Positions 17,174 through 47,221 of a stretch of DNA of 64,000 bases are shown here, piece after piece. Below the pieces are notes generated by a model. That model had not been told where the DNA came from, searched no databases, and was given only the letters and a program-made list of their open reading frames with translations. The DNA comes from Craspedostauros australis (lineage: Eukaryota), in the NCBI GenBank assembly GCA_030167865.1, contig JALAGF010004837.1, positions 124,001 through 188,000 of the forward strand, read 5' to 3'. Numbering within the stretch: the stretch's first letter is position 1; each line of letters opens with the position of its first letter. A program made the translations under genes and the position numbers.

Positions 17174-20100
17174 TTATGCGTTGCAGTCCGGACACCAGAC
17201 ACAACCGCAGTCATGGCCATCATATCCAGCCGAGTCATCATCCTTCTCTTCGATCTCTTCTCGCTGAACACCATCTGGGGTCACGGGGGCCAAGGCGTCG
17301 TAGTCAACGGATGACGCGCTGCTCTCTGAGGCATTGGGGTCCTTGCGGAGCACGACGATGGTGATCCTTTGCTCGTCCTTGATGACCTTCTTCAATTCGC
17401 CGATATTCTTGAAGTCATGGTGATCCGTACCGTTCAACTCAAGGACCTTGTCACCGGCGATCACGGGAGTTTTGGCGAACAGTCCACCTGATGGAACCTT
17501 TCGGACGTAGTACTTGCCATTCTTTTCCTCCACCTTCAGCCCTGCGTCTTGCTTCGGGTTGGACTTGCCGACAGTCACAGTGATGACGTCCCCTGGTTGG
17601 AACATGTCTGCTGGAGTGAGCTTCTTTCCACTCGGTCCTGTGACCGGTTTCCCATCCTCACCGAACTCATTCTTTCCATCACCAGATTGGGAGCCATCCT
17701 CTTTCTTCTTGTTGAGCTGATTCAACTTGTCAGCTCTGGACTTTGGCTCCTTCTGTTGTGCCTGGCCACCATCATCATCGTCATCATCATCAGCGAAATC
17801 ATCTTCATCGGAATCGTCATCATCGTCATCATCAGCTGCCCCACGGTTCTTCTTGGATGATGAATTCGCACGGTTTTGTTCCTTTGGGATGTGTGTATGG
17901 ATCGACAGCAGCGTGAGATGGTGGTATAGCAGTACGTACGTGATGTCGTGGTTTCGATTTCACCGAGTGGAAAACAACATGGAGGGAGAGAGAGAGAGCG
18001 CAAATTGCAAGCATGATTGAGGCAAGGAATGGTGTCATTCATGCGGGAGCAGAAAGGTGAGCGTGTGGCACAAATATGTGTACAATCGGCCGGTACTGTT
18101 CGCATGGCGAATGCACGCTTACAGGGGGGACTGTACTCGGCGGCATTCTGGCGAGGTTCTGGAGAGAGCAGCAGCATGGTATGGCACTCTTGTATGCATG
18201 CGAGTATCACAAGAATTGTATTGCATTGTATTGCATTGCATCGTTGCCAAACGGACAGTAGTATCGGTGCCACCAGCTTCAGCAGCAAAAGAGCAGAAAC
18301 AGCAGCAGGGAAATGGACAATATCTTACCTCTTCGCCACCCTCATCATCGCTGCCTTCGTCATCTGCCTCGTCCATGACGTAGCCACACTTGTCGCAAAC
18401 GAGGTCTCCTTCTTCATCTCGTTCGGCATTGGCGTTAAGGTGGCCGCAATGCTCGCATTCAGTGACGGGGACATCGCCTGAATTTGCTGGGTTGGACGCC
18501 AGCTATCGTTGTGAATCATTGAGACAGTTCAGGTTTGGCGGCATATTATAGGTGACGTTGTGCGTGAAACGATAATTGAAGGAATGGTGAGGGACACACA
18601 TGCGAAAGGAATGAAATGGTGTGTATGAAGGATGATTGTCAATTCCTATGGGACATGGCCGCAGACGTTGAACGATACCATCTTCGGGCACAACCAAGCA
18701 ACGTAGAGCATGCATGAATTCGAACAGACCCTCAAGGCATACAAGCATGTACGTGTGGTGACAACTTTGAGTTTGGTGGAGAGACGACAAGGAGGGTCGC
18801 ATTTGTCGTTGGGATGCCGTACGTACTTCTTCAGGGAGGACTTCACCGCAAGCCTCGCACACCATGTCACCATCTTCGTCGCGAACAGGGTTCACGTTGA
18901 CGTGACCACAGTCCTCGCATTCGATTTCAGGCGAACCACCAGACGCCTGTTCGAGGTGATCAGAAGTGCAACACCAGAATGAATGCAGAGGAATAAAGTA
19001 GGAGAGAAACAGTAGTGAGTGGGTGTGATCCAGAACGTGTAAGTGCAAAAGGCAAAGGCAAGGCATTCTGAATGGAATTATGCAGCAACAACCTGGCTTT
19101 TCATGCTTTCATGATGAAACAGGCAGGAGCATGATGTTCACAAGATGCGTTGCTGCTGTTGCTGCTGCTGTAATAGCACACTTACGTTTCTGTTGCCACC
19201 AGCGGCTGGATTGGAGCTTGCCTTGCCTCCATCATCTTCATCATCGCTGCCATCGTCAGTCTCCTCGTCGCTGTCGTTCAGGACGGTGTCACACTTCTCG
19301 CAAACCAAGTCGCCATCTTCATCTTCTTCAAGATTGACGTTGTCATGTCCGCACTCGTCGCAGTGGTGGACCTGTGTTCGATGAAGTCAGTGAATTTGTG
19401 ACATAAGGGTAGGAGGGTATGGCAGGACGAGATATCGTCCAATCAAGCAAAGCATGGGTAGAATACAATGTGAGTGCGAGTGCACCACGCACCATTGTGC
19501 ACCATCGTCAAGTACCATGCAGCATTGTGCACATGAAGACTTTGAACTCTTCCGATCGAATGGCTGAGTTGCAATCGAGCACATAGAGCATACCACCGGC
19601 AAGGGTACATGCGTTTGCACACACACCAGCTCGCGAATGCAACAGAATAGTTCTCGGTAGACAAAAGCAGTTCACTCACAGTTGGCTTCGAGTCATCTTG
19701 AGGTGCGAGGACGAGTGCGTTGGAGGTGGCGCCAGGTCCAGCAGAAGCAGCAGCCCCGCTTCGTGGCGAATCATCGTCATCGTCGCTATCATCCTGCTGT
19801 CCTCTCTTTTTGCTTCCACCTTTGCCTTTGTCCTTGTCCTTGCCTTTATCTTTGCCCTTATCCTTGCCCTTGCTCTTGCTCTTGTCTTTGCCCTTGTCCT
19901 TGTCATGGCCCTTGCCCTTGTCCTTGCCTTTGTCTTTGCGCTTGCTTTTGCGGTCGTTGCGCTCGTCGCTGTCATCGTCATCGATGTCGTCATCGCTGTC
20001 ATCGTCCTGGGCAACACGGCTCTTCTTGCTGTCCTTGGGTGGCTTGTTGGACTTTCCCTTCTTGTCTTTCTCCTTATCCTTGCTTTTGCCCTTGCTTTTG

Positions 20101-20510
20101 TCCTTATCTTTATCCTTGTCCTTGTCCTTTCCTTTGCCCTTCTTGCTGCTGGACTTGGTGGGCGACGCTTGCTCGCTGCGAAGCTGGTCTCCAGAGTCCT
20201 CGTCGTCCGCAACCTCCGTGTCCTCGGTCATGTAGTTGTTGCTCTTGTCCTCGTCGAAGGATTCGATCTGATCCTTGGGCACGACGATGAGGCGGATGGT
20301 CTCGATCATGTCGTTGGCATCCTGCTCAGTGCCGAAGTTCTCGCTGCGCACCCCGTTGATGGCGACGACACGATCGCCCGTGCGCACGCGAGCCTTGGCG
20401 GGGGCATCCGACATGAAGTAGCCCACCGCATTCTTCTCGATGACATAGCCGGACTTCTTCTTGGCGTCTCGCTGTATCGTCACAGCTCGAGTGTTCTGGT
20501 GTTCCGACAT
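17174..20510 (-). CDS. Multi-exon PDZ / triple zinc-ribbon / PDZ protein (about 672 aa)
   Basis: Reconstructed exons (minus strand): 20510-19680, 19371-19186, 18946-18827, 18502-18329, 17881-17174. All introns are GT-AG and phase 0, giving 2019 nt in frame. N-terminal PDZ-like segment (GDRVVAING), KD/KG repeats, three CxxC...CxxC exons, C-terminal PDZ (AGDKVLELNG), ending HDCGCVWCPDCNA. Confidence 0.75.
19820..20150 (-). repeat. Coding hexamer repeats (AAGGAC/AAGGGC) encoding KDKGKDK tracts
   Basis: Two blocks of ttgtcc/ttgccc repeats on the + strand, inside exon 1 of the PDZ gene. Confidence 0.8.
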
Positions 20511-21685: not shown

Positions 21686-21935
21686 CTGCGTGCCGATGCT
21701 CGTACTCGTCTTCGTGTAAACACTGGTACTCGCACTACGCGCAATGCACTACGCGACACAACACACTTTACGAATCTGCACGGCAAGGCGATAACGATGC
21801 TGACACGCAGAGCTGAAGCTTTCTCACAGAAATCAATACAAACACACAGTCTGCACAAAAACAATCACGCACAGCAACGCAAACCCACCTCCACGTCTAT
21901 CCACACCAATCCACACCAATCCACATCCATTCACC

Positions 21936-22796
21936 ATGAAGTTCACTGCCGCCCTCGTCGCCCTGACTGTTGCCCCAGTCGTCTCCTTCTCTTACCTGGA
22001 CAACCTCTCCAAGCCAGCCACCGCCCAGGCCACAGCTGTTGCCGACCCACCGTTCTTCTTCACCAACGGTGTCAAGGATGAGCCAGCCACCTCATCCTTC
22101 GATGCCCCAGCGCCAACCAGCGCCAAGTACCTCGAGAACCTCAACGCTGCCCCAGCTGCCTCCGCCCCAACCGGCGGAAACGCCGTGGGATCCTACCTCG
22201 ACAACCTCAATGCCCCAGCGGCCAGCGCCCCCACCGGATCCGGCATGAGCAGCTACCTCGATGCCCTCCCGGCCCAGCCAGCCACCACCGGCGCTGGAAT
22301 GACCAACTACGCCGAGAGCCTCAACCAGGCCGGAGCCGCCTCCTTCTCCACCCCAGCTTTCGTGCCAGCACCAGCTGCCGGCGTCCCAGCCAACGCTGCC
22401 CCAACCAGCGCCGGATACCTCTCCAACCTCAACACCGGAGCCGACGCCAACCCATCCGGTGCCGGAATCAGCGGATACCTCGATGCCCTCCCACGTGCCC
22501 CACCAACGATCGGAGGAGCCGGAATCCCAAGCTACAAGGACTCCCTCCCAACCGCCCCAGCCATGATCGGCGGACCAGGAATCCCAGACTACAAGGACTC
22601 CCTCTCTGCCGGAGGTGGCGCCGCCCCAGTCGGCGGATACGCCGTCTCGGGAAGCAGCAACTTCGCCATCGGCTCCATCACAGGAAAGTTCGACTTCTCC
22701 TTCGAGGCCGATGCCAACATCGTCAACCAGATCAAGACCGCCGGAGACAGAAAAATGACCCTCACCGGAAAGGTCAACTCCGTCTCTTACAACTAA
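21936..22796 (+). CDS. Plastid-targeted low-complexity repeat protein (nine Y-x-[DES]-x-L motifs, small C-terminal beta domain)
   Basis: 286 aa. Signal peptide MKFTAALVALTVAPVVS-F with Phe at +1. A/P/G/S/T spacers separate SYLDNL, KYLENL, SYLDNL, SYLDAL, NYAESL, GYLSNL, GYLDAL, SYKDSL and DYKDSL. Very strong C-ending codon bias. Confidence 0.85.
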   Translation: MKFTAALVALTVAPVVSFSYLDNLSKPATAQATAVADPPFFFTNGVKDEPATSSFDAPAPTSAKYLENLNAAPAASAPTGGNAVGSYLDNLNAPAASAPTGSGMSSYLDALPAQPATTGAGMTNYAESLNQAGAASFSTPAFVPAPAAGVPANAAPTSAGYLSNLNTGADANPSGAGISGYLDALPRAPPTIGGAGIPSYKDSLPTAPAMIGGPGIPDYKDSLSAGGGAAPVGGYAVSGSSNFAIGSITGKFDFSFEADANIVNQIKTAGDRKMTLTGKVNSVSYN

Positions 22797-24965
22797 ATCC
22801 CTTCGCGCAAGGCAGGGGTGTCAGGGACGACATCACCAAGGCCGGTCGCTCGTGCCGTCATGCCCAACGAGTACGACTACCAGTAGAGTCCGTACTGGTG
22901 TCATGATGAAGCACAAGACAGGAAGCGCCCACCATCTCGCGCCTTTACGGGCTGAGACTGAAGCGGGCGATCAGGAGAAGATCACACTTGGCTGATGATC
23001 AACCAGGTACGTATTAGCGTCATGCCAACCTTGTGCAGCCATGCCACGTTGCGTTGCGCCATGTCGCGATGAGACCATCACGCTGTCGTCGTCGCTCGAA
23101 ACCAAACGTATCGTCGTCTCATGCAGATGTTTGTTTTGATCTGCCTCCGACTCTCCACGCTTCTGTTCACAAACGACCATCGGGTCTTTCGATACTCTAC
23201 GACAACAGAGAGGCAGCCAGACAACGCTTCGAACGAAGCAATGCTATGACCACAACTACAGACTCGACTCTCTCGAGTCCGTACTTTACTCCATTGCAAC
23301 AGAGGCAATCGAAACAACCGACAACCAATCAACAACAAACAACCATATTCAACCAAATCAATCAACTATTATACTTACTTATCAACCAACAAATAAACCA
23401 ACTCAAACGATCAACCACTCAACAACACATTCGCGCACCCGTCGTCTGAACAACACTTTGCACAGCACAGGTTCCAAGTCATCAACCATCTCTCTCCCTC
23501 GTTTCTGCTACATGAAGCAGACATCGGAGCGATGAGGAACACGGGATGATGCATGAGCTTGGGAGAGCAAAGAATCAGGCCAACTCGTACCGTCCCATGC
23601 ACTCAATCAAACCCCACAAAAAAGTACAAACAGAGCAACACGAGACAAACGCGTAAACCCTAATATTCCACCTGTCACAAACACACGGCCTCGGTGTCGA
23701 AATGTAGCCGTAGATTTGATGCATGATCCTTGTGCAGAGTTGAAAGGATTGACTCTCGATGCACTTCTCTGGTGGACTCGACACATGGCGTCAGGAGGTG
23801 CACGTTACGGGGTGTCATGTCATCTGCTCTTCTCCGCAATCGTCAAAGAATCATTGCACCAGGAATCCTCTTGCTCCCAACCAACTTTTCTGCCATAGAA
23901 CGGGCCAGAGTATAGTCAACATAAATGCACTGCACTGTATTCTATCGCAATCTATCTCCACAAGCCAACCAACCACCCACATGTTTCAGCTTCCGTGGCG
24001 CATGATTTCCATCTGCTTCTCTCCTGCAGATCTCTGTCTCGATGCCAATACTCGTCCAACGGCTAACTATTTCCGCTTTATCGATCCACCAAACGAGCCT
24101 CCACAAGGTACTCGTATCGTGACACTGACAGCGCTGTCTCTTTCCGCTTTGGTGGATCGGAAGGAGGAAGAGTGGCCACGAATGTCAACACGTCGAGTCT
24201 TGAGTTATCGTGATTGGGATTCACGCGTGCGTCAGCCGCATCTTTGGTGGAGCTTACTGCCTTTGGGGACCAAACATCAACATCGCGTATCTCTTGGTCC
24301 AACGCGTTGATGGTTCAGGATCTCGTTTGGTGCTGAAGCTGGCGTCGAGATACTGGGAGATACTGGCATGGTGAGGCGTGGCTTCTCGTCGCATCCATCA
24401 CCATGATCAAGATGACCATCATCAGAACGTCGGCATCAACGCGGAAGGCTCCGGGCGGCGAGGAGCAACAGGACGCGCAGCATGAGTGTTTCTCTGTCCT
24501 ATCATACGTACTCCATTCTACTCAGATGCTCTGCTCGACAACACTGTTCAAGACATCTTCGGCATGCCTGTGAATGTGATTTCGCTATTGCTCCGAGCGG
24601 CGCGATTGTTGATGCCAGGAGGAGGAGGAGGAGTGATGGATTGATGTTTGTTGGTTTTCTCTTTATTTTACTTGCAACTGTCTGTCTCGTTTCCCAGTGT
24701 CAGATTGTTCCTGAATGGGTTTACCGTGGAATAGTTGCGGTCCTTAGCATTGATTACAGACGCGATCGTCGCGAGACAACGACGACAACGTTGGCAGGTG
24801 CGGACATGCCACCCGCACTTTTGTGCTTGCGGCGGGCGTGCGTCGCGCCATGCGGTCGCGGGAGAGCGAGGCTCTCTCGTCACCATGCACCTTGCAACGC
24901 AATGTTGCATCGAATGTTTGCATCAGAGCGTGCAAGGCGCCTTTGATAGTGCCTTTGGCAGCAAT

Positions 24966-43609: not shown

Positions 43610-46600
43610 ATGAAACTCTCATTCGCAGCATTCCTGCTGAGTATCTCTGCCGTGCCCCGATCCTCCGAGGCGCTTAGCAGCAGCTCCTACCTTGACAACT
43701 TGTCATCGTTCCAGCAACCATTCTTCGCTCGTCAGAACCCGTCCCCCGAGCCACAGCAGGCAGATGTGGCCAATTCGAACGCAGATATCTTCGGCGGCAA
43801 CTGGGAATCAACACCAGATGCAAAGGCAAATGGAGATGACGGTGGCGACAGCAACGGCTTTGACGCATTCTTTGCCAACTTCGGCTCCAACGGATCTGCC
43901 AACGGGGCCGAGACCGCCCATCATGTCAACGCAGCCGATGGTGGTAGCGGATTCGCGGAGAGCATGACATCTGTTGCAGCAGAACCGGCTTCACCTGTGC
44001 CAATAGCAACAGCGACAACCTACGAGTACAGCGCCACAGACTCCACCGATTCGACCATCGATGACCAATTCTTCGCGCAAGCATCTACGGATGGACAAGC
44101 ACCTGGTTTCAATGAAATGAACGGCATCATCAACATGGACGGTGTGAGTGGCGAAGTCACACCAGAGGTGGCAACTGCGCAGGACCTCTCCCATATGTCC
44201 AACCAGGAGCGGATCGAGACCATGCAACAAGCCGCGAGGGCGGCTGCTGCTGCAGCGGCGGTGGCTACCGATGCGTCTTTCACCCACGTGCAGCCATTTC
44301 CTCCAGTCAACGGCGATGCCGTTGCACCAGTGAATGGATTTTCCGATGCCGAATTGACACCGGCGGCGGAGTTGACGTCAGGCGTGGCTGCTTCCGCTGC
44401 TGTTGAAGCTCCTTCTTCATGGACTGCAACACCAGCGCCAACAGTCGCAACAGAGACGGCAACAGAAATGACAACAGAGGAGGTGGAGAGCTCTCCGAGG
44501 TCATACAGAGCACCCTACGGCTGGGCTCAGACCGTTGAGAACAGGCCACAGTACCCGGTCCAGAACATCCCGAACACCATCGACACGGCAGCCTCCACGA
44601 GCGCGACACGATCGGTCACGGAAGATAGTCGAGGTGGGAGTTCGAGCAACACGCAATTCAGAAAGACGTACACGACCACCAAGTGGAATCCGGGATCGGT
44701 GAGATCCAAGATGAAGGAAGCTGCTGCTGCAGCAGCCGCAGCTGGGAATTCAGCGATGCAAGGCAATGAACCCGAATTGCGTTCGTCCACCAAGACCTCC
44801 GAGCACCCCGGCGTGAACCAGATGGCGGGTTACCTGGGCAACTGGAAGGCCAAGTTCCAGAAGGAAGCCGCCAAGCGAGCCCAGACGAAGAACCAAGTCG
44901 AGGATTCCATCGCATACAGGATGTCCAAGGAGAATGCCAACAGTGTCACTACGGACGGAGGCCCCACCAGTGAAGAAAGCGCCACCGACACAATTGTCGT
45001 CAACGGAACTCCTCCGAACGACAACAAGAGCCCCGATGAGGATGAAGATGACGGCAGCAGCAGCAAGAGCAGCGGCACCAATGGCGATGCGTCCTCCGTG
45101 CAAAACGAGGGACCAACATTGACGGAACGCATGCTCCTCAAGGTACCAACCCAGAATCAGGTAGGCGGTGCAGGAGGCGTGTCCACGCTCGATGCTTTCC
45201 GCCGAGCCGAAGCCAATTGGGCCAAGCTCAAGGCATCGAAACCATTCACGTATGATTCCAAGTTGCTTCGCTGGGAGCAGAATGGTAAGCCACCGGCCAC
45301 GCAATTCGTTTCGTCCGATGGTGCATTCGGCAATCCCATGTGCTGGAAGAAGCTGAGCGAGCAAAAGGGCAAGGAGTTGGATTTTGACGTCGTCGTGTGC
45401 GGTGGCACATTGGGCATCTTCTTCGCCATGATGCTGCTGCAGCAAGGGCACAGGGTCTGTGTGCTGGAGGCCGGCAAGCTCCGCGGACGTGAGCAGGAGT
45501 GGAACATCAGCATGGATGAGTTGGAGGAGCTCAAACAGTTGGGCATCCTCACTCAGGAGGATATCGACGCGGTGATCACGACTGAGTTTCCGGCATGCCG
45601 ATCCGGCTTCAAAACAGAGGAGGTTACGCCGCTTGCAGGCGGGTACTTCGACAACGGGGTCGGATACGAATGCGAGACACCCGGTGTGCTGAACCTGGGC
45701 ATCTCTCCATCCACCTTGCTGAACATCGTCTCGGAGCGTTTCAAGGCCGGCGGTGGCGTCATCCGAGAGCAATCTCGTTTGAAGGGCGTGTGCGTGTCTC
45801 CTTTGGCAGGCACTGCTCTGGATCTGGGCGAGGAGAAGGAGCCAATCACAAGCCGTTTGGTCCTGGACGCCATGGGCAACGCCTCGCCAATCTCTGCCCA
45901 ACAACGCTACGGGATGAAACCTGACGGCATTTGTGCAGTCGTCGGGTCATGCGCTGGCGGATACGATCCAGAGACCAACAAGATCGGGGACATCATCTAC
46001 ACCAACCAGAACATCGTTCGCACCACGGATGATTCCTGCAATCAGTACTTCTGGGAGGCGTTCCCCGTCGGTATCGGCCGTAACGGAAAGACGAAGAGCG
46101 ATGTGAAGACGACGTACATGTTCACGTACATGGATGCCGACGAGAGCCGTCCGTCGTTGGAGACCTTGATGGAGGACTACTGGAGACTTCTGCCAACCTA
46201 CCAGCCCTCCATCAACGATCCGGAGACCGACCTCGACATCAAGAGAATACTCTTCGCCTTCTTCCCGACCTACCGGGACTCCCCGTTGCAACCTGAGTGG
46301 AGCCGCGTGTTGGCCGTGGGTGATTCATCGGGCATCCAAAGCCCTCTGAGCTTCGGCGGATTCGGTGCGCTCACCAGGCATCTCGACCGTGTGGGGGCCG
46401 CGCTGGACGAAGCGCTCACCAATGACTGCCTCCACAAGGATGAACTCGGCCAAATCAACGCCTACATGCCAAATCTGAGCGTCACGTGGATGTTCCAAAA
46501 GGCCATGTCCGTCAGGGCCGGACAGACCAACGTGCGTCCCGAATTCATCAACCGCCTCCTTGCTACCAACTTCAAGGAGATGGATGAGATGGGCCAGCGC

Positions 46601-47221
46601 ACAATCAAACCGTTCCTGCAGGATGTCGTTCGTTTCGATGGTCTGGTTGGGAGCCTCGCCAAGAGCTTCGTTGCAGATCCCACATTCATGCCAGAGATCG
46701 TCGCGACTGTTGGATTGCCGACTTTGGCCGATTGGCTTGGTCACTTATCGATGGTACGTTTGCAATCTGCGATTCTCGATTTTCCATTCGCTCTGCGTTG
46801 CGTTGCTTTGCTGTGTGAAGTTTCGAATGTGCGCACGAGCTTGCTGATGTGATGCTCAACCAGATGTGCCGTGTCTTGTTGAGAGTGTCCGCTCATTCAC
46901 TCATGTTTACGCACGTTCACTCGTTGGTCCACATGCGTCTCATCTCTTTGATTCCGACCCTGCTGGACTCTTTCGCGCGCTCTTTGTCGCTGATGCTCAC
47001 TCGTGAAATAATGATGACGACGACGATGACAACAGATGGGGGCATACACAGTGCTGGACAGCACAGTTCCACCACTCCTCACACCATACGTAAACAAGGT
47101 CATGACGGACCCTCGACAGAAGTTCACCTGGCGCAGACGCATGGATGCATGGAAGTTCGGCTCGGGAATGGATTACGAGCTCCCCAAGAGCAACAACAAG
47201 ATCTACGAGAAGGAAGAATAG
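43610..47221 (+). CDS. CruP/CruA-family lycopene-cyclase-like FAD oxidoreductase with about 500-aa disordered N-terminal extension, plastid-targeted, 2 exons
   Basis: Exons 43610-46753 and 47036-47221. Motifs FDVVVCGGTLG, LRGREQEWNIS, DAMGNASPI, YFWEAFP, VGDSSGIQSPLSFGGFG and WKFGSGMDY. Signal peptide ...RSSEA-L. Confidence 0.82.

What the first reader, a model, noticed from the sequence alone, without database searches (positions are those of the whole stretch)
21936..22796. Plastid-targeted sticker-and-spacer protein with nine Y-x-[DES]-x-L motifs: candidate condensate or pyrenoid linker
Seen: a signal peptide with Phe at +1, then nine short amphipathic motifs (SYLDNL, KYLENL, SYLDNL, SYLDAL, NYAESL, GYLSNL, GYLDAL, SYKDSL, DYKDSL) mostly about 20 aa apart. 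The spacers are A/P/G/S/T-rich, a roughly 45-aa beta-looking domain ends the protein, and the codon bias suggests high expression. Established: Rubisco linkers such as Chlamydomonas EPYC1 and Phaeodactylum PYCO1 are disordered multivalent proteins with repeated aromatic stickers. Inference: this is a multivalent scaffold for a plastid sub-compartment (pyrenoid matrix, shell or thylakoid junction) that uses a sticker I cannot match to a named family.
Basis: partly seen in the sequence, partly recalled or inferred. Interest (0 to 1): 0.72.

Follow-up and report, generated by a model that had tools for sequence, protein, structure and literature searches.

The report
Diatom pyrenoid-protein (DPC2) relative, motif repeats
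This diatom gene encodes a small, floppy, probably abundant protein studded with nine copies of a short tyrosine-leucine motif; it is a distant relative of DPC2, a protein found inside the carbon-fixing pyrenoid of another diatom, and may help hold Rubisco together there.

Summary
Window 21936-22796 (+) is one intronless ORF of 286 aa. It has a signal peptide followed by Phe, nine Y-x-[DES]-x-L motifs (0 of 100,000 shuffles exceed 4), 58% A/G/S/P/T, a confident roughly 40-aa C-terminal domain, and the strongest codon bias among 14 long window ORFs.

It does match a named family, through its repeats: Pfam PF25195 "Diatom pyrenoid component 2" (E 3e-14, 53.7 bits, below the 70-bit cut-off). DPC2 of Thalassiosira pseudonana is a GFP-localised, abundant, Rubisco-associated pyrenoid-matrix protein of unknown mechanism.

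The window protein belongs to an undescribed subfamily ("type A", named taxa pennate) that shares only the repeat module. The true unit is G-x-G-h-x-s-Y-L-D-a-L-P, arranged in clusters. The C-terminal domain differs from DPC2's, there is no Cys, and there is an extra P-F-F-F-T-N-G motif.

The module is portable. It also heads a plastid flavoenzyme encoded in this same window and its orthologues, follows I29-like domains, and once follows a bestrophin.

My best reading (0.5) is a plastid, pyrenoid-matrix multivalent scaffold. Binding to Rubisco is untested here because no diatom Rubisco sequence was to hand; the one complex-prediction job I sent, a test of C-terminal-domain dimerisation, found the tool unavailable. 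I rate it a new variant of a known kind, of moderate interest.

The parts
21936..22796 (+). Complete single-exon coding sequence (286 codons plus TAA) of the DPC2-like repeat protein (P0001)
   Evidence: Homologues of 262-368 aa align end to end.
21936..21986 (+). Signal peptide, residues 1-17 (M-K, hydrophobic core, V-V-S)
   Evidence: By inspection. The same layout occurs in family members. No predictor was run.
21987..21989 (+). Phe18, the presumed +1 residue after signal-peptide cleavage (ASAFAP-type plastid signal)
   Evidence: Phe stands two residues before the first motif's Tyr in 48 of 89 family proteins (Leu in 16 of 89), but before only 1 of 642 internal motifs.
21993..22007 (+). Motif 1 (Y20), directly behind the signal peptide
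   Evidence: Y20, L21 and L24 are at least 90% conserved in alignments A1 and A2.
22047..22070 (+). P-P-F-F-F-T-N-G motif (residues 38-45), specific to the type A subfamily
   Evidence: Majority-residue fraction is 0.63 at P38 and 0.82-0.96 at residues 39-45, over 49 sequences. It is present once or twice in type A members and in no protein classed as type B, C or D.
22125..22325 (+). Motif cluster 1 (residues 64-130): motifs at Y65, Y87, Y107, Y125, spaced 22, 20 and 18 aa
   Evidence: Best Pfam DPC2 stretch is residues 61-131. AF2 places a helix at 125-131.
22326..22412 (+). A/P-rich spacer between the clusters (residues 131-159)
   Evidence: Poorly conserved and variable in length in alignment A2.
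22413..22607 (+). Motif cluster 2 (residues 160-224): motifs at Y161, Y181, Y200, Y219, spaced 20, 19 and 19 aa
   Evidence: G175/G177, G194/G196 and G213 are invariant and G215 is >=90% conserved (0.98). A 57-nt tandem duplication covers the last two units (22486-22604).
22662..22793 (+). C-terminal folded domain (residues 243-286), type A
   Evidence: pLDDT is 84-91 over residues ~250-286. Mean conservation is 0.68. It is homologous to the type B C-terminal domain (hhalign 96.9%, E 1.4e-10) but not to types C or D. No PDB fold or sequence match.
43610..46852 (+). Second gene of the window (P0108, 1080 aa): signal peptide, one copy of the same motif, a long disordered region, then a flavin-dependent dehydrogenase-like domain
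43685..43702 (+). S-Y-L-D-N-L motif (residues 26-31 of P0108), directly behind its signal peptide
   Evidence: Orthologues P0337 and P0344 carry a full three-motif cluster here that Pfam reads as DPC2 (E 2e-7 and 8.6e-7).

Best explanation
The gene encodes a nucleus-encoded, probably highly expressed protein. I infer that it enters the secretory route by a signal peptide and is passed on to the plastid through the Phe at +1.

The mature protein is a largely disordered, acidic chain with these parts:
- one N-terminal motif;
- two clusters of four short motifs, with consensus G-x-G-[IML]-x-[ST]-Y-[LK]-D-[AS]-L-P;
- a small folded C-terminal domain.

It is a pennate-type member of the diatom DPC2 repeat superfamily. 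By homology to T. pseudonana DPC2 I place it in the pyrenoid matrix.

Proposed mechanism (inferred, not shown): each motif or motif cluster is a weak binding site that probably folds into one helical turn on contact. The likely partner is form ID Rubisco or another matrix component. The many sites on one flexible chain would let the protein cross-link its partners into the dense matrix. The same module, carried singly or as one cluster by other proteins (a plastid flavoenzyme, I29-like-domain proteins, one bestrophin), would act as an address that brings them to the same place. The C-terminal domain may add self-association or anchoring.
For: Shown here:
1. The only Pfam hit is PF25195 DPC2 (E 3e-14). 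BLASTP with composition adjustment against a bona fide DPC2-type protein (P0048, 228 bits to PF25195) gives E 4e-19, in several repeat registers.
2. 103 of 107 family members match PF25195 at E<=0.01. The family is small: 112 representatives at E<=1e-3 among 1.84 billion proteins. Of the family hits that carry an organism name, all are from diatoms or a dinotom except one labelled Alexandrium.
3. The pattern is sticker-and-spacer. Motif positions are conserved at 0.78 versus 0.47 for the rest of residues 60-231, Gly pairs are invariant, and residues 1-245 have pLDDT about 50.
4. Valency varies in relatives, with 18-21-aa spacing inside clusters and super-repeats of about 85-100 aa. An example is P0124, with 21 motifs.
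5. The module is portable. Strict motifs occur 16 times in 9 of 86 N-terminal extensions of the flavoenzyme orthologues, against a shuffle mean of 0.13 and a maximum of 2 in 2000 shuffles. Two of these extensions are read by Pfam as DPC2. I29-like domain plus repeats occurs in P0147 (Pfam Inhibitor_I29, E 8.6e-9). P0125 and P0132 carry an N-terminal domain that resembles it only by eye: Pfam reported only DPC2 for them. Bestrophin plus repeats occurs in P0161.
6. Phe is specific to the first motif's context (48 of 89 versus 1 of 642). Most flavoenzyme orthologues have classical signal-peptide-plus-Phe presequences, so the variants with the motif directly behind the signal peptide presumably still reach the plastid.
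7. Codon bias is extreme (Nc 26.6).

From papers:
- DPC2 is solely pyrenoid-localised, interacts with Rubisco in affinity purification, is abundant, is a network hub and is of unknown mechanism (10.1101/2023.10.26.564148, passages).
- A C-terminal extension is needed for pyrenoid localisation of PtBST3 (PMC11142338, passages).
Against: - The Pfam score (53.7 bits) is below the curated cut-off of 70. Similarity to true DPC2 is confined to the repeats.
- The C-terminal domain is unrelated to DPC2's (hhalign probability 0.2). The Cys-containing segments of DPC2-type proteins are absent.
- No localisation or binding datum exists for type A, B or C proteins in any paper found.
- The stretch behind the signal peptide is net acidic. 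From my own knowledge this is atypical of diatom stromal transit peptides.
- The protein is acidic (net -7). The known linkers EPYC1 and PYCO1 are, as I recall, basic.
- The bestrophin fusion is a single record on one 4.7-kb contig. None of the 120 best short bestrophins has two or more motifs or a G-x-G-linked motif, and none of 59 metagenome bestrophin loci has a motif cluster.
- AF2 predicts a helix for only one of the nine motifs.
- One source auto-names a homologue 'Secreted protein'.
Confidence: 0.5

Rival explanations
1. The protein is plastid or pyrenoid located, but it is not a Rubisco cross-linker. The motif clusters dock onto a different partner, such as the PyShell lattice, the pyrenoid-penetrating thylakoid or another DPC protein. 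The protein would then be an adaptor, hub or client rather than the matrix glue.
For: - Nam et al. call DPC2 a hub linking four nodes and leave its role open. They note that no pyrenoid protein has the roughly 60-aa repeat expected of a linker.
- Spacing here is about 20 aa inside clusters, which is short for bridging two Rubisco holoenzymes.
- The distinct C-terminal domains A/B, C and D look like alternative anchors.
- The protein is acidic.
Against: - DPC2 is matrix-localised, not peripheral, and co-purifies with Rubisco.
- Clusters recur every 85-100 aa in long forms, which is compatible with linker geometry.
- High expression suits a stoichiometric matrix component.
Confidence: 0.22
2. 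The motif is chiefly an import or sorting signal, or a mature-N-terminus feature for plastid or sub-plastid routing. The repeats would have no scaffold role of their own.
For: - The first motif always sits directly behind the signal peptide, or behind a normal transit peptide. This holds in this family, in the flavoenzyme orthologues and in DPC2-type proteins.
- P0108 carries only one copy, at that place.
Against: - A sorting signal does not explain 5-21 internal copies with invariant Gly-x-Gly and conserved positions.
- It also does not explain clusters far from the N-terminus, as in P0337 (residues 199-258), P0147 and P0161.
Confidence: 0.1
3. It is a secreted extracellular-matrix, adhesive or cell-wall associated protein. 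This reading rests on the signal peptide plus an A/P/G/S/T-rich low-complexity chain.
For: - It has a signal peptide, an acidic N-terminal stretch without an obvious basic transit peptide, and a mucin-like composition.
- UniRef auto-names a Nitzschia homologue 'Secreted protein'.
- The closest transcript comes from a raphid, adhesive diatom genus.
Against: - Homology to a GFP-localised pyrenoid protein.
- Phe or Leu conserved at +1.
- The same module heads a flavoenzyme whose orthologues have plastid presequences.
- The eight proteins of the Craspedostauros australis adhesive-trail proteome are described with other domains, and none is described with this motif (10.1101/2023.03.06.531300, passages; its supplements were not readable).
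Confidence: 0.08

Closest known systems
DPC2 (Diatom Pyrenoid Component 2) of Thalassiosira pseudonana; Pfam PF25195
   Same: - Signal peptide, then the first motif at or near the mature N-terminus.
- Repeated G-x-G-h-x-s-Y-L-D-x-[LIV] units at 18-24-aa spacing, in clusters.
- Acidic, Trp-free and A/S/G/P/T-rich composition.
- Restricted to diatoms among named hits, apart from one record labelled Alexandrium.
- Signs of high abundance: proteomics for DPC2, codon bias here.
   Different: - The score is below the Pfam cut-off (53.7 versus 70 bits), whereas DPC2-type proteins score 99-376 bits.
- The C-terminal domain is unrelated.
- There are no Cys-containing inter-cluster segments (0 Cys, against a median of 4).
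- There is an extra P-F-F-F-T-N-G motif.
- The first motif follows the signal peptide directly, without a recognisable transit peptide.
- Localisation of this subfamily is untested.
PYCO1, the Rubisco linker of Phaeodactylum tricornutum
   Same: Both are pyrenoid-matrix repeat proteins of a diatom with short stickers separated by spacers. This is a functional analogy only (PMC13655443, passages; PMC10288592, title and start of abstract only).
   Different: - There is no sequence relation. PYCO1's stickers are K-W-S-P-R-G-G-S and G-T-G-Y-N-P, whereas this protein has no Trp at all.
- PYCO1 is not widely conserved and is absent from centric diatoms (Nam et al.).
- In my typing, the full DPC2-type form (type D) is probably centric, but that rests on the founder's species because no type D hit carried an organism name. 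Types A-C come, where named, from pennate diatoms.
EPYC1 and the shared Rubisco-binding motif of Chlamydomonas pyrenoid proteins
   Same: The logic is the same. One short motif is multiplied in a disordered linker and also carried by other proteins that must reach the organelle (the Nam et al. introduction passage, states this for Chlamydomonas). Here the module occurs in the repeat proteins and also on a flavoenzyme, on I29-like-domain proteins and on one bestrophin. From my own recollection, not from any call, RBMP1 of Chlamydomonas is a bestrophin-like motif carrier.
   Different: - The sequences are unrelated and the lineages are different (green versus red plastid, form IB versus ID Rubisco).
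- EPYC1 repeats are about 60 aa, whereas here units are about 20 aa in clusters.
- This protein ends in a folded domain.
- Binding to Rubisco is not shown for this motif.
SUPA1 of Ulva
   Same: Disordered assembly factor whose short motifs fold into helices on binding Rubisco, and a consensus motif shared by other pyrenoid proteins (10.64898/2026.07.16.738900, abstract and outline only). This is the behaviour I propose for the Y-L-D-x-L-P unit.
   Different: It is a green seaweed protein and no sequence comparison was made. Helix formation by the diatom motif is my inference; AF2 predicts a helix for only 1 of 9 motifs.

Membership tests
Pfam PF25195 DPC2 (T. pseudonana DPC2 type) | Whole-protein score at or above Pfam's gathering cut-off (70 bits) | tested here: not met
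   53.7 bits, E 3e-14, model positions 18-98 of 105 on residues 61-131. DPC2-type proteins score 99-376 bits.
Pfam PF25195 DPC2 (T. pseudonana DPC2 type) | Repeated G-x-G-h-x-s-Y-L-D-x-[LIV] units at about 18-24-aa spacing, arranged in clusters | tested here: met
   Nine motifs, five of them with invariant or nearly invariant G-x-G. BLASTP to P0048 gives E 4e-19 in several registers. Spacings are compared.
Pfam PF25195 DPC2 (T. pseudonana DPC2 type) | Cys-containing segments between clusters, seen in every high-scoring member I read | tested here: not met
   0 Cys in P0001. Type D median is 4 Cys; types A-C median is 0.
Pfam PF25195 DPC2 (T. pseudonana DPC2 type) | Thr/Val-rich C-terminal segment of the DPC2-type (type D) proteins | tested here: not met
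   hhalign of the last 55 residues, type A against type D: probability 0.2.
Pfam PF25195 DPC2 (T. pseudonana DPC2 type) | Bipartite plastid presequence (signal peptide, then an aromatic residue at +1) | tested here: inconclusive
   A signal-peptide-like N-terminus and Phe18 are seen by inspection. Phe is specific to the first motif (48 of 89 versus 1 of 642). No recognisable basic transit peptide follows. SignalP, ASAFind and HECTAR were not available.
Pfam PF25195 DPC2 (T. pseudonana DPC2 type) | Pyrenoid-matrix localisation and co-purification with Rubisco | not testable with these tools
   Known only for T. pseudonana DPC2.
PYCO1 (P. tricornutum Rubisco linker) | K-W-S-P-R-G-G-S and G-T-G-Y-N-P sticker repeats | tested here: not met
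   The motifs are as given in PMC13655443. P0001 has no Trp, and neither string occurs in the translation.
EPYC1-type linker | Tandem repeats of about 60 aa, each with one Rubisco-binding helix | tested here: not met
   Motif spacing is 18-22 aa within clusters, and Y65 to Y161 is 96 aa between cluster starts. The only DNA-level tandem repeat is 57 nt x 2.1.
Sticker-and-spacer scaffold (functional class, not a homology family) | Disordered chain with several conserved short motifs separated by poorly conserved spacers | tested here: met
   pLDDT is about 50 over residues 1-245. Conservation is 0.78 at 63 motif positions versus 0.47 at 109 other positions.
Sticker-and-spacer scaffold (functional class, not a homology family) | Motif-dependent multivalent binding and condensation with a partner | not testable with these tools
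   Needs purified protein and Rubisco, or a complex prediction.

The most novel reading that the evidence does not exclude
The G-x-G...Y-L-D-x-L-P unit is the diatom counterpart of the Chlamydomonas Rubisco-binding motif: a pan-diatom sticker and address code for the red-type pyrenoid. Under this reading, small abundant DPC2-family proteins (type D in T. pseudonana, and probably in other centric diatoms; types A-C in pennates) are the general Rubisco-condensing linkers of diatoms, which PYCO1 is not. Single clusters of the same unit would recruit clients, such as a plastid flavoenzyme, I29-like-domain proteins and some bestrophins, to the matrix. The pyrenoid proteome of any diatom could then be predicted from sequence by scanning for the motif.
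Probability: 0.25. Interest if true: 0.85.

Novelty: new variant of a known kind. Interest (0 to 1): 0.55.

Why it matters
According to the papers read here, diatom pyrenoids fix about a fifth of global CO2 (abstracts listed). The papers also state that how Rubisco is packed is unknown in T. pseudonana, and that PYCO1 is not widely conserved (Nam et al.).

This analysis gives that open question a concrete, testable handle:
- a defined 12-residue unit with invariant Gly, Tyr, Asp and Leu;
- its cluster architecture;
- its presence in DPC2-type proteins, which are probably centric, as well as in pennate lineages;
- natural "experiments" in which the unit is grafted onto other proteins.

If the motif binds Rubisco, it would be a compact tag for targeting proteins to red-type pyrenoids and a new part for engineering CO2-concentrating mechanisms. 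If it does not, the family is still an abundant, diatom-specific plastid component without a known partner.

Tried and rejected
- **Whole genome of the window:** none is held, so paralogues could not be counted.
- **Complex prediction:** Self-association of the domain is therefore open. A Rubisco-motif complex could not be set up in any case, because no diatom RbcL or RbcS sequence was to hand and bacterial stand-ins were judged not worth it.
- **Fold search:** the AF2 model against 48,161 PDB representatives gave no match with Z>=2.
- **PDB sequence and profile searches:** nothing for the family. For the flavoenzyme domain, only two designed repeat proteins at weak E.
- **ESM Atlas** with the C-terminal domain: no usable hit.
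- **NCBIfam:** nothing for P0001.
- **Text search for the motif strings:** 672 papers, all noise.
- **Literature searches for a characterised DPC2 or a diatom Rubisco-binding motif:** only Nam et al. holds 'DPC2' together with 'pyrenoid'. Nothing relevant appeared.
- **PtBST3 C-terminal extension:** its sequence could not be obtained. Supplementary Fig. S2 is an image and PtBST3 was not among the 120 listed bestrophins. Whether it holds the motif is untested.
- **Replication of the bestrophin-repeat fusion:** none of the 120 short bestrophins has two or more motifs or a G-x-G-linked motif. None of 59 metagenome loci has a motif cluster, and the contig of P0161 itself was not recovered.
- **Recent duplication of the two N-termini of the window:** rejected, because there is no DNA-level similarity beyond chance.
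- **Expression:** no RNA holder is listed. The one run found (X1, library type not on record) left parts of the stretch without cover.
- **Earlier findings of this scan:** nothing relevant.
- **Supplements of bioRxiv preprints** (Nam et al. tables S1-S5, Shimakawa tables, the C. australis trail proteome) could not be read. They may hold the DPC2 accession, interactors and protein lists that bear on these claims.
Full report
**1. What is there**

Window 21936-22796 (+) is a single open reading frame of 286 codons ending in TAA. No earlier start codon lies in frame. Homologues of 262-368 aa align with it from end to end, so it is a complete, intronless gene.

The window is ordinary eukaryotic nuclear DNA of about 53% G+C. 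Its genes include a lipoyl ligase, a WDR55-like protein, a K+/H+ antiporter-like protein, PurK/PurE, a bilin reductase, a kinase and IF-2, and they do not form a carbon-concentration gene cluster. No whole genome is held for the window.

**2. The observation**

All nine Y-x-[DES]-x-L motifs are present, at residues 20, 65, 87, 107, 125, 161, 181, 200 and 219. Six of the eight intervals are 18-22 aa; the other two are 45 and 36 aa. Nine of the 11 tyrosines lie in motifs. None of 100,000 shuffles of the protein gave more than four motifs.

A, G, S, P and T make up 165 of 286 residues, and there is no Trp, Cys or His.

AlphaFold2, run with a 49-sequence alignment, gives pLDDT of about 50 for residues 1-245 and 84-91 for residues about 250-286. 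It predicts only two helices, at 125-131 and 260-269. So the C-terminal part is a small folded unit, but of a strand-helix-strand kind rather than purely beta.

Codon usage is the most biased of 14 long ORFs in the window: Nc is 26.6, against 35.6-57.8 for the others.

The N-terminus looks like a signal peptide with Phe at +1. That is my inspection only, as no predictor was available.

**3. The real repeat unit**

An invariant (one position nearly invariant) G-x-G lies 4-6 residues before the Tyr of five motifs (Y107, Y125, Y181, Y200, Y219), followed by [IML]-x-[ST]-Y-[LK]-D-[AS]-L-P.

The motifs form two clusters of four, residues 64-130 and 160-224. In each cluster a lead motif without G-x-G is followed by G-x-G motifs. 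A further motif sits directly behind the signal peptide.

The 63 motif positions have a mean majority-residue fraction of 0.78, against 0.47 for the 109 other positions of residues 60-231. A second motif, P-P-F-F-F-T-N-G at residues 38-45, is equally conserved at residues 39-45 (0.82-0.96; P38 is 0.63).

**4. What family it is**

The only Pfam match at E<=10 is PF25195, "Diatom pyrenoid component 2". It scores E 3e-14 and 53.7 bits, under the curated cut-off of 70.

A word-indexed search of 5.8 billion proteins gave 106 relatives. Of these, 94 already carry PF25195 in precomputed annotation. On rescanning, 103 of 107 proteins (query included) match it at E<=0.01. An exhaustive search of 1.84 billion cluster representatives found only 112 relatives at E<=1e-3.

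Organism names, where given, are:
- Craspedostauros, Nitzschia, Pseudo-nitzschia pungens and a Bacillariaceae MAG;
- the dinotom Kryptoperidinium, which harbours a diatom endosymbiont;
- one record labelled Alexandrium.

By C-terminal sequence the 107 proteins fall into four types:
- type A: 51 proteins, including this one;
- type B: 26 proteins;
- type C: 15 proteins;
- type D: 7 proteins;
- 8 proteins were left unassigned. Three of them were later put with types B and C by eye for the comparison.

The C-terminal domains of A and B are homologous (hhalign 96.9%, E 1.4e-10). Those of C and D are unrelated to A, to B and to each other (probabilities 0.1-0.3).

Among the 14 proteins scanned, only type D proteins, which also contain Cys-bearing segments, pass Pfam's cut-off (99-228 bits); types A-C score 30-62 bits. 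Some longer relatives found later also pass it.

Direct BLASTP with composition adjustment between this protein and a type D protein gives E 4e-19, in several shifted registers.

So the window protein shares the repeat module with DPC2, but not the rest. It belongs to a subfamily, pennate where named, that I found described in no paper.

**5. What is known of DPC2**

I read passages, not the whole text, of Nam et al. (bioRxiv 10.1101/2023.10.26.564148). The points taken are:
- DPC2 of T. pseudonana was found by Rubisco co-immunoprecipitation.
- Its GFP fusion lies solely in the pyrenoid, predominantly in the matrix.
- It interacts with Rubisco in affinity purification, is relatively abundant and is a hub of the network.
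- The authors call it a strong candidate for matrix assembly but give no mechanism. They state that none of their pyrenoid proteins has repeats at the expected spacing of about 60 aa.

A 2026 review lists EPYC1, CsLinker, PYCO1 and RbcS-STAR as linkers and does not mention DPC proteins (PMC13655443, passages).

The family does contain repeats, at a different scale. Units are 18-24 aa apart, grouped in clusters that recur every 85-100 aa in long forms. For example, P0124 has 21 motifs in six super-repeats, and P0147, P0125 and P0132 have three-motif clusters.

**6. The module is portable**

(a) A second gene in the same window (43610-46852 +, 1080 aa) starts with a signal peptide followed at once by S-Y-L-D-N-L. 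A long disordered stretch follows, and then a flavin-dependent dehydrogenase-like domain.
- It is the only other strict motif in a real gene of the window.
- Most of its 120 listed orthologues have short, classical signal-peptide-plus-Phe presequences without the motif.
- Where a conserved anchor allowed the N-terminal extension to be delimited (86 of 121 proteins), strict motifs occur 16 times in 9 proteins. Shuffles gave a mean of 0.13 and a maximum of 2 in 2000. These proteins are related, so this is not 9 independent events.
- Two orthologues (P0337, P0344) carry a full three-motif cluster with G-x-G that Pfam itself reads as DPC2 (E 2e-7 and 8.6e-7).
- In orthologues that keep a normal transit peptide (Fistulifera), the motif follows it, as in DPC2-type proteins.

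(b) One protein combines a cathepsin-propeptide-like (I29) domain with motif clusters (P0147). P0125 and P0132 have motif clusters behind an N-terminal domain that looks similar to me, but Pfam gave no I29 hit for them. One bestrophin carries an I29-like domain (P0321).

(c) One 1436-aa protein joins a bestrophin domain (E 9e-63) to DPC2 repeats (315 bits). It is a single record on a 4.7-kb contig and I could not replicate it:
- none of the 120 short bestrophins has two or more motifs or a G-x-G-linked motif; 9 of 120 have a single motif somewhere, and one ends in N-Y-L-D-N-L-K;
- none of 59 metagenome bestrophin loci has a motif cluster.
I give this fusion little weight.

Bestrophins lie in or at diatom pyrenoids, and the C-terminal extension of PtBST3 is needed for its pyrenoid localisation (PMC11142338, passages). 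I could not obtain that sequence to test it for the motif.

**7. Targeting**

Phe stands two residues before the Tyr of the first motif in 48 of 89 family proteins, and Leu in 16 of 89. It stands there before only 1 of 642 internal motifs. The Phe therefore belongs to the signal-peptide junction and not to the repeat, as expected of the aromatic +1 residue of diatom plastid presequences.

Against this, the following 30-40 residues are net acidic. From my own knowledge that is unusual for a stromal transit peptide. The flavoenzyme variants with the same arrangement argue that such N-termini can still be imported, but this is inference.

**8. Mechanism proposed**

Shown: a disordered, acidic chain with conserved, clustered short motifs; variable valency among relatives; portability of the module; homology of the module to that of a pyrenoid-matrix, Rubisco-associated protein; strong codon bias.

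Inferred: the protein lies in the pyrenoid matrix. Each Y-L-D-x-L-P unit presents Tyr, Leu and Leu on one face of a single helical turn closed by Pro, and docks weakly on a partner, most likely Rubisco. The Gly pair gives the flexibility needed. Many units on one chain cross-link partners. The C-terminal domain adds self-association or anchoring. The model shows confident extended segments without intramolecular partners, which is only a hint.

None of the binding steps was tested.

**9. Rivals**

The rivals, with my probabilities, are:
- an adaptor or hub for a non-Rubisco partner (0.22);
- a sorting signal rather than a sticker (0.10);
- a secreted matrix protein (0.08).

They are set out with evidence in their own sections.

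**10. Comparison and novelty**

This is not PYCO1 and not an EPYC1-type linker. It has no Trp, neither PYCO1 sticker, and no repeats of about 60 aa.

It works, if my reading is right, like the Chlamydomonas system, in which one Rubisco-binding motif serves both the linker and the clients (Nam et al. introduction).

It fails three of the five testable features of strict DPC2 membership: score, Cys segments and C-terminal segment. It meets the repeat feature. The fifth, the bipartite presequence, is inconclusive. I therefore file it as a new variant within the DPC2 repeat superfamily, not as DPC2.

**11. Verdict**

The family is already named, and its founder is localised but not understood.

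Interest is moderate (0.55). A specialist would not be surprised that a DPC2 relative exists. The defined unit, its cluster architecture, its presence in DPC2-type as well as pennate-type proteins, and its grafting onto other plastid proteins make the open question of Rubisco packing in diatoms directly testable.

Noticed in passing
window 43610-46852 (+): This 1080-aa protein has a signal peptide, one S-Y-L-D-N-L motif, about 500 disordered residues and a flavin-dependent dehydrogenase-like domain with no Pfam family at E<=0.01 and no PDB relative. It has 588 homologues at E<=1e-10, and all organism names among the 120 listed are diatoms. A subset has motif-bearing N-terminal extensions.
   Followed up: partly
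window 21936-22796 and 43610-46852; Nitzschia inconspicua locus tags: In N. inconspicua the DPC2-like gene (locus tag ending 000809) and the flavoenzyme gene (000815) are six locus tags apart. In this window the two genes are 21 kb apart. Their linkage may therefore be conserved among raphid diatoms.
   Followed up: no
window 21955-22018 and 22349-22610; protein P0003: A paralogue-like transcript shares the signal peptide and a 262-nt block covering cluster 2. The block differs at 9 places and the signal-peptide piece at 7 of 64. Elsewhere the transcript has 180 other letters in place of 330, and it has a type B C-terminal domain. This suggests gene conversion or block exchange between family members.
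   Followed up: partly
window 22581-23000: One contig of coded run X1 (899 nt, library type not on record) matches the last 216 nt of the coding sequence and the following 204 nt without any difference, and it runs on beyond the stretch laid.
   Followed up: partly
window 22486-22604: A 57-nt tandem duplication (2.1 copies, 82% matches) corresponds to the last two motif units, both Y-K-D-S-L. Both positions are old in the family (0.92 and 0.94 Tyr conservation), so this looks like local homogenisation.
   Followed up: partly
window 21899-21925: A perfect 10-nt tandem repeat (2.7 copies) lies in the C/A-rich leader just upstream of the start codon.
   Followed up: no
protein P0136: A high-scoring DPC2-type protein (257.8 bits) is labelled Alexandrium tamarense in EukProt. 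This may be diatom contamination of that data set, or a dinoflagellate copy.
   Followed up: no
proteins P0125, P0132, P0147, P0321: A cathepsin-propeptide-like (I29) domain occurs with DPC2-type repeats in P0147 and, in one case, in front of a bestrophin domain (P0321). P0125 and P0132 have a similar-looking N-terminal domain with repeats, but Pfam gave no I29 hit for them. This points to a third component that may belong to the same sub-organellar system.
   Followed up: partly
window 19443-20510 (-): A 355-aa ORF has long Lys/Asp/Gly/Ser low-complexity runs and no Pfam match at E<=1e-5.
   Followed up: no
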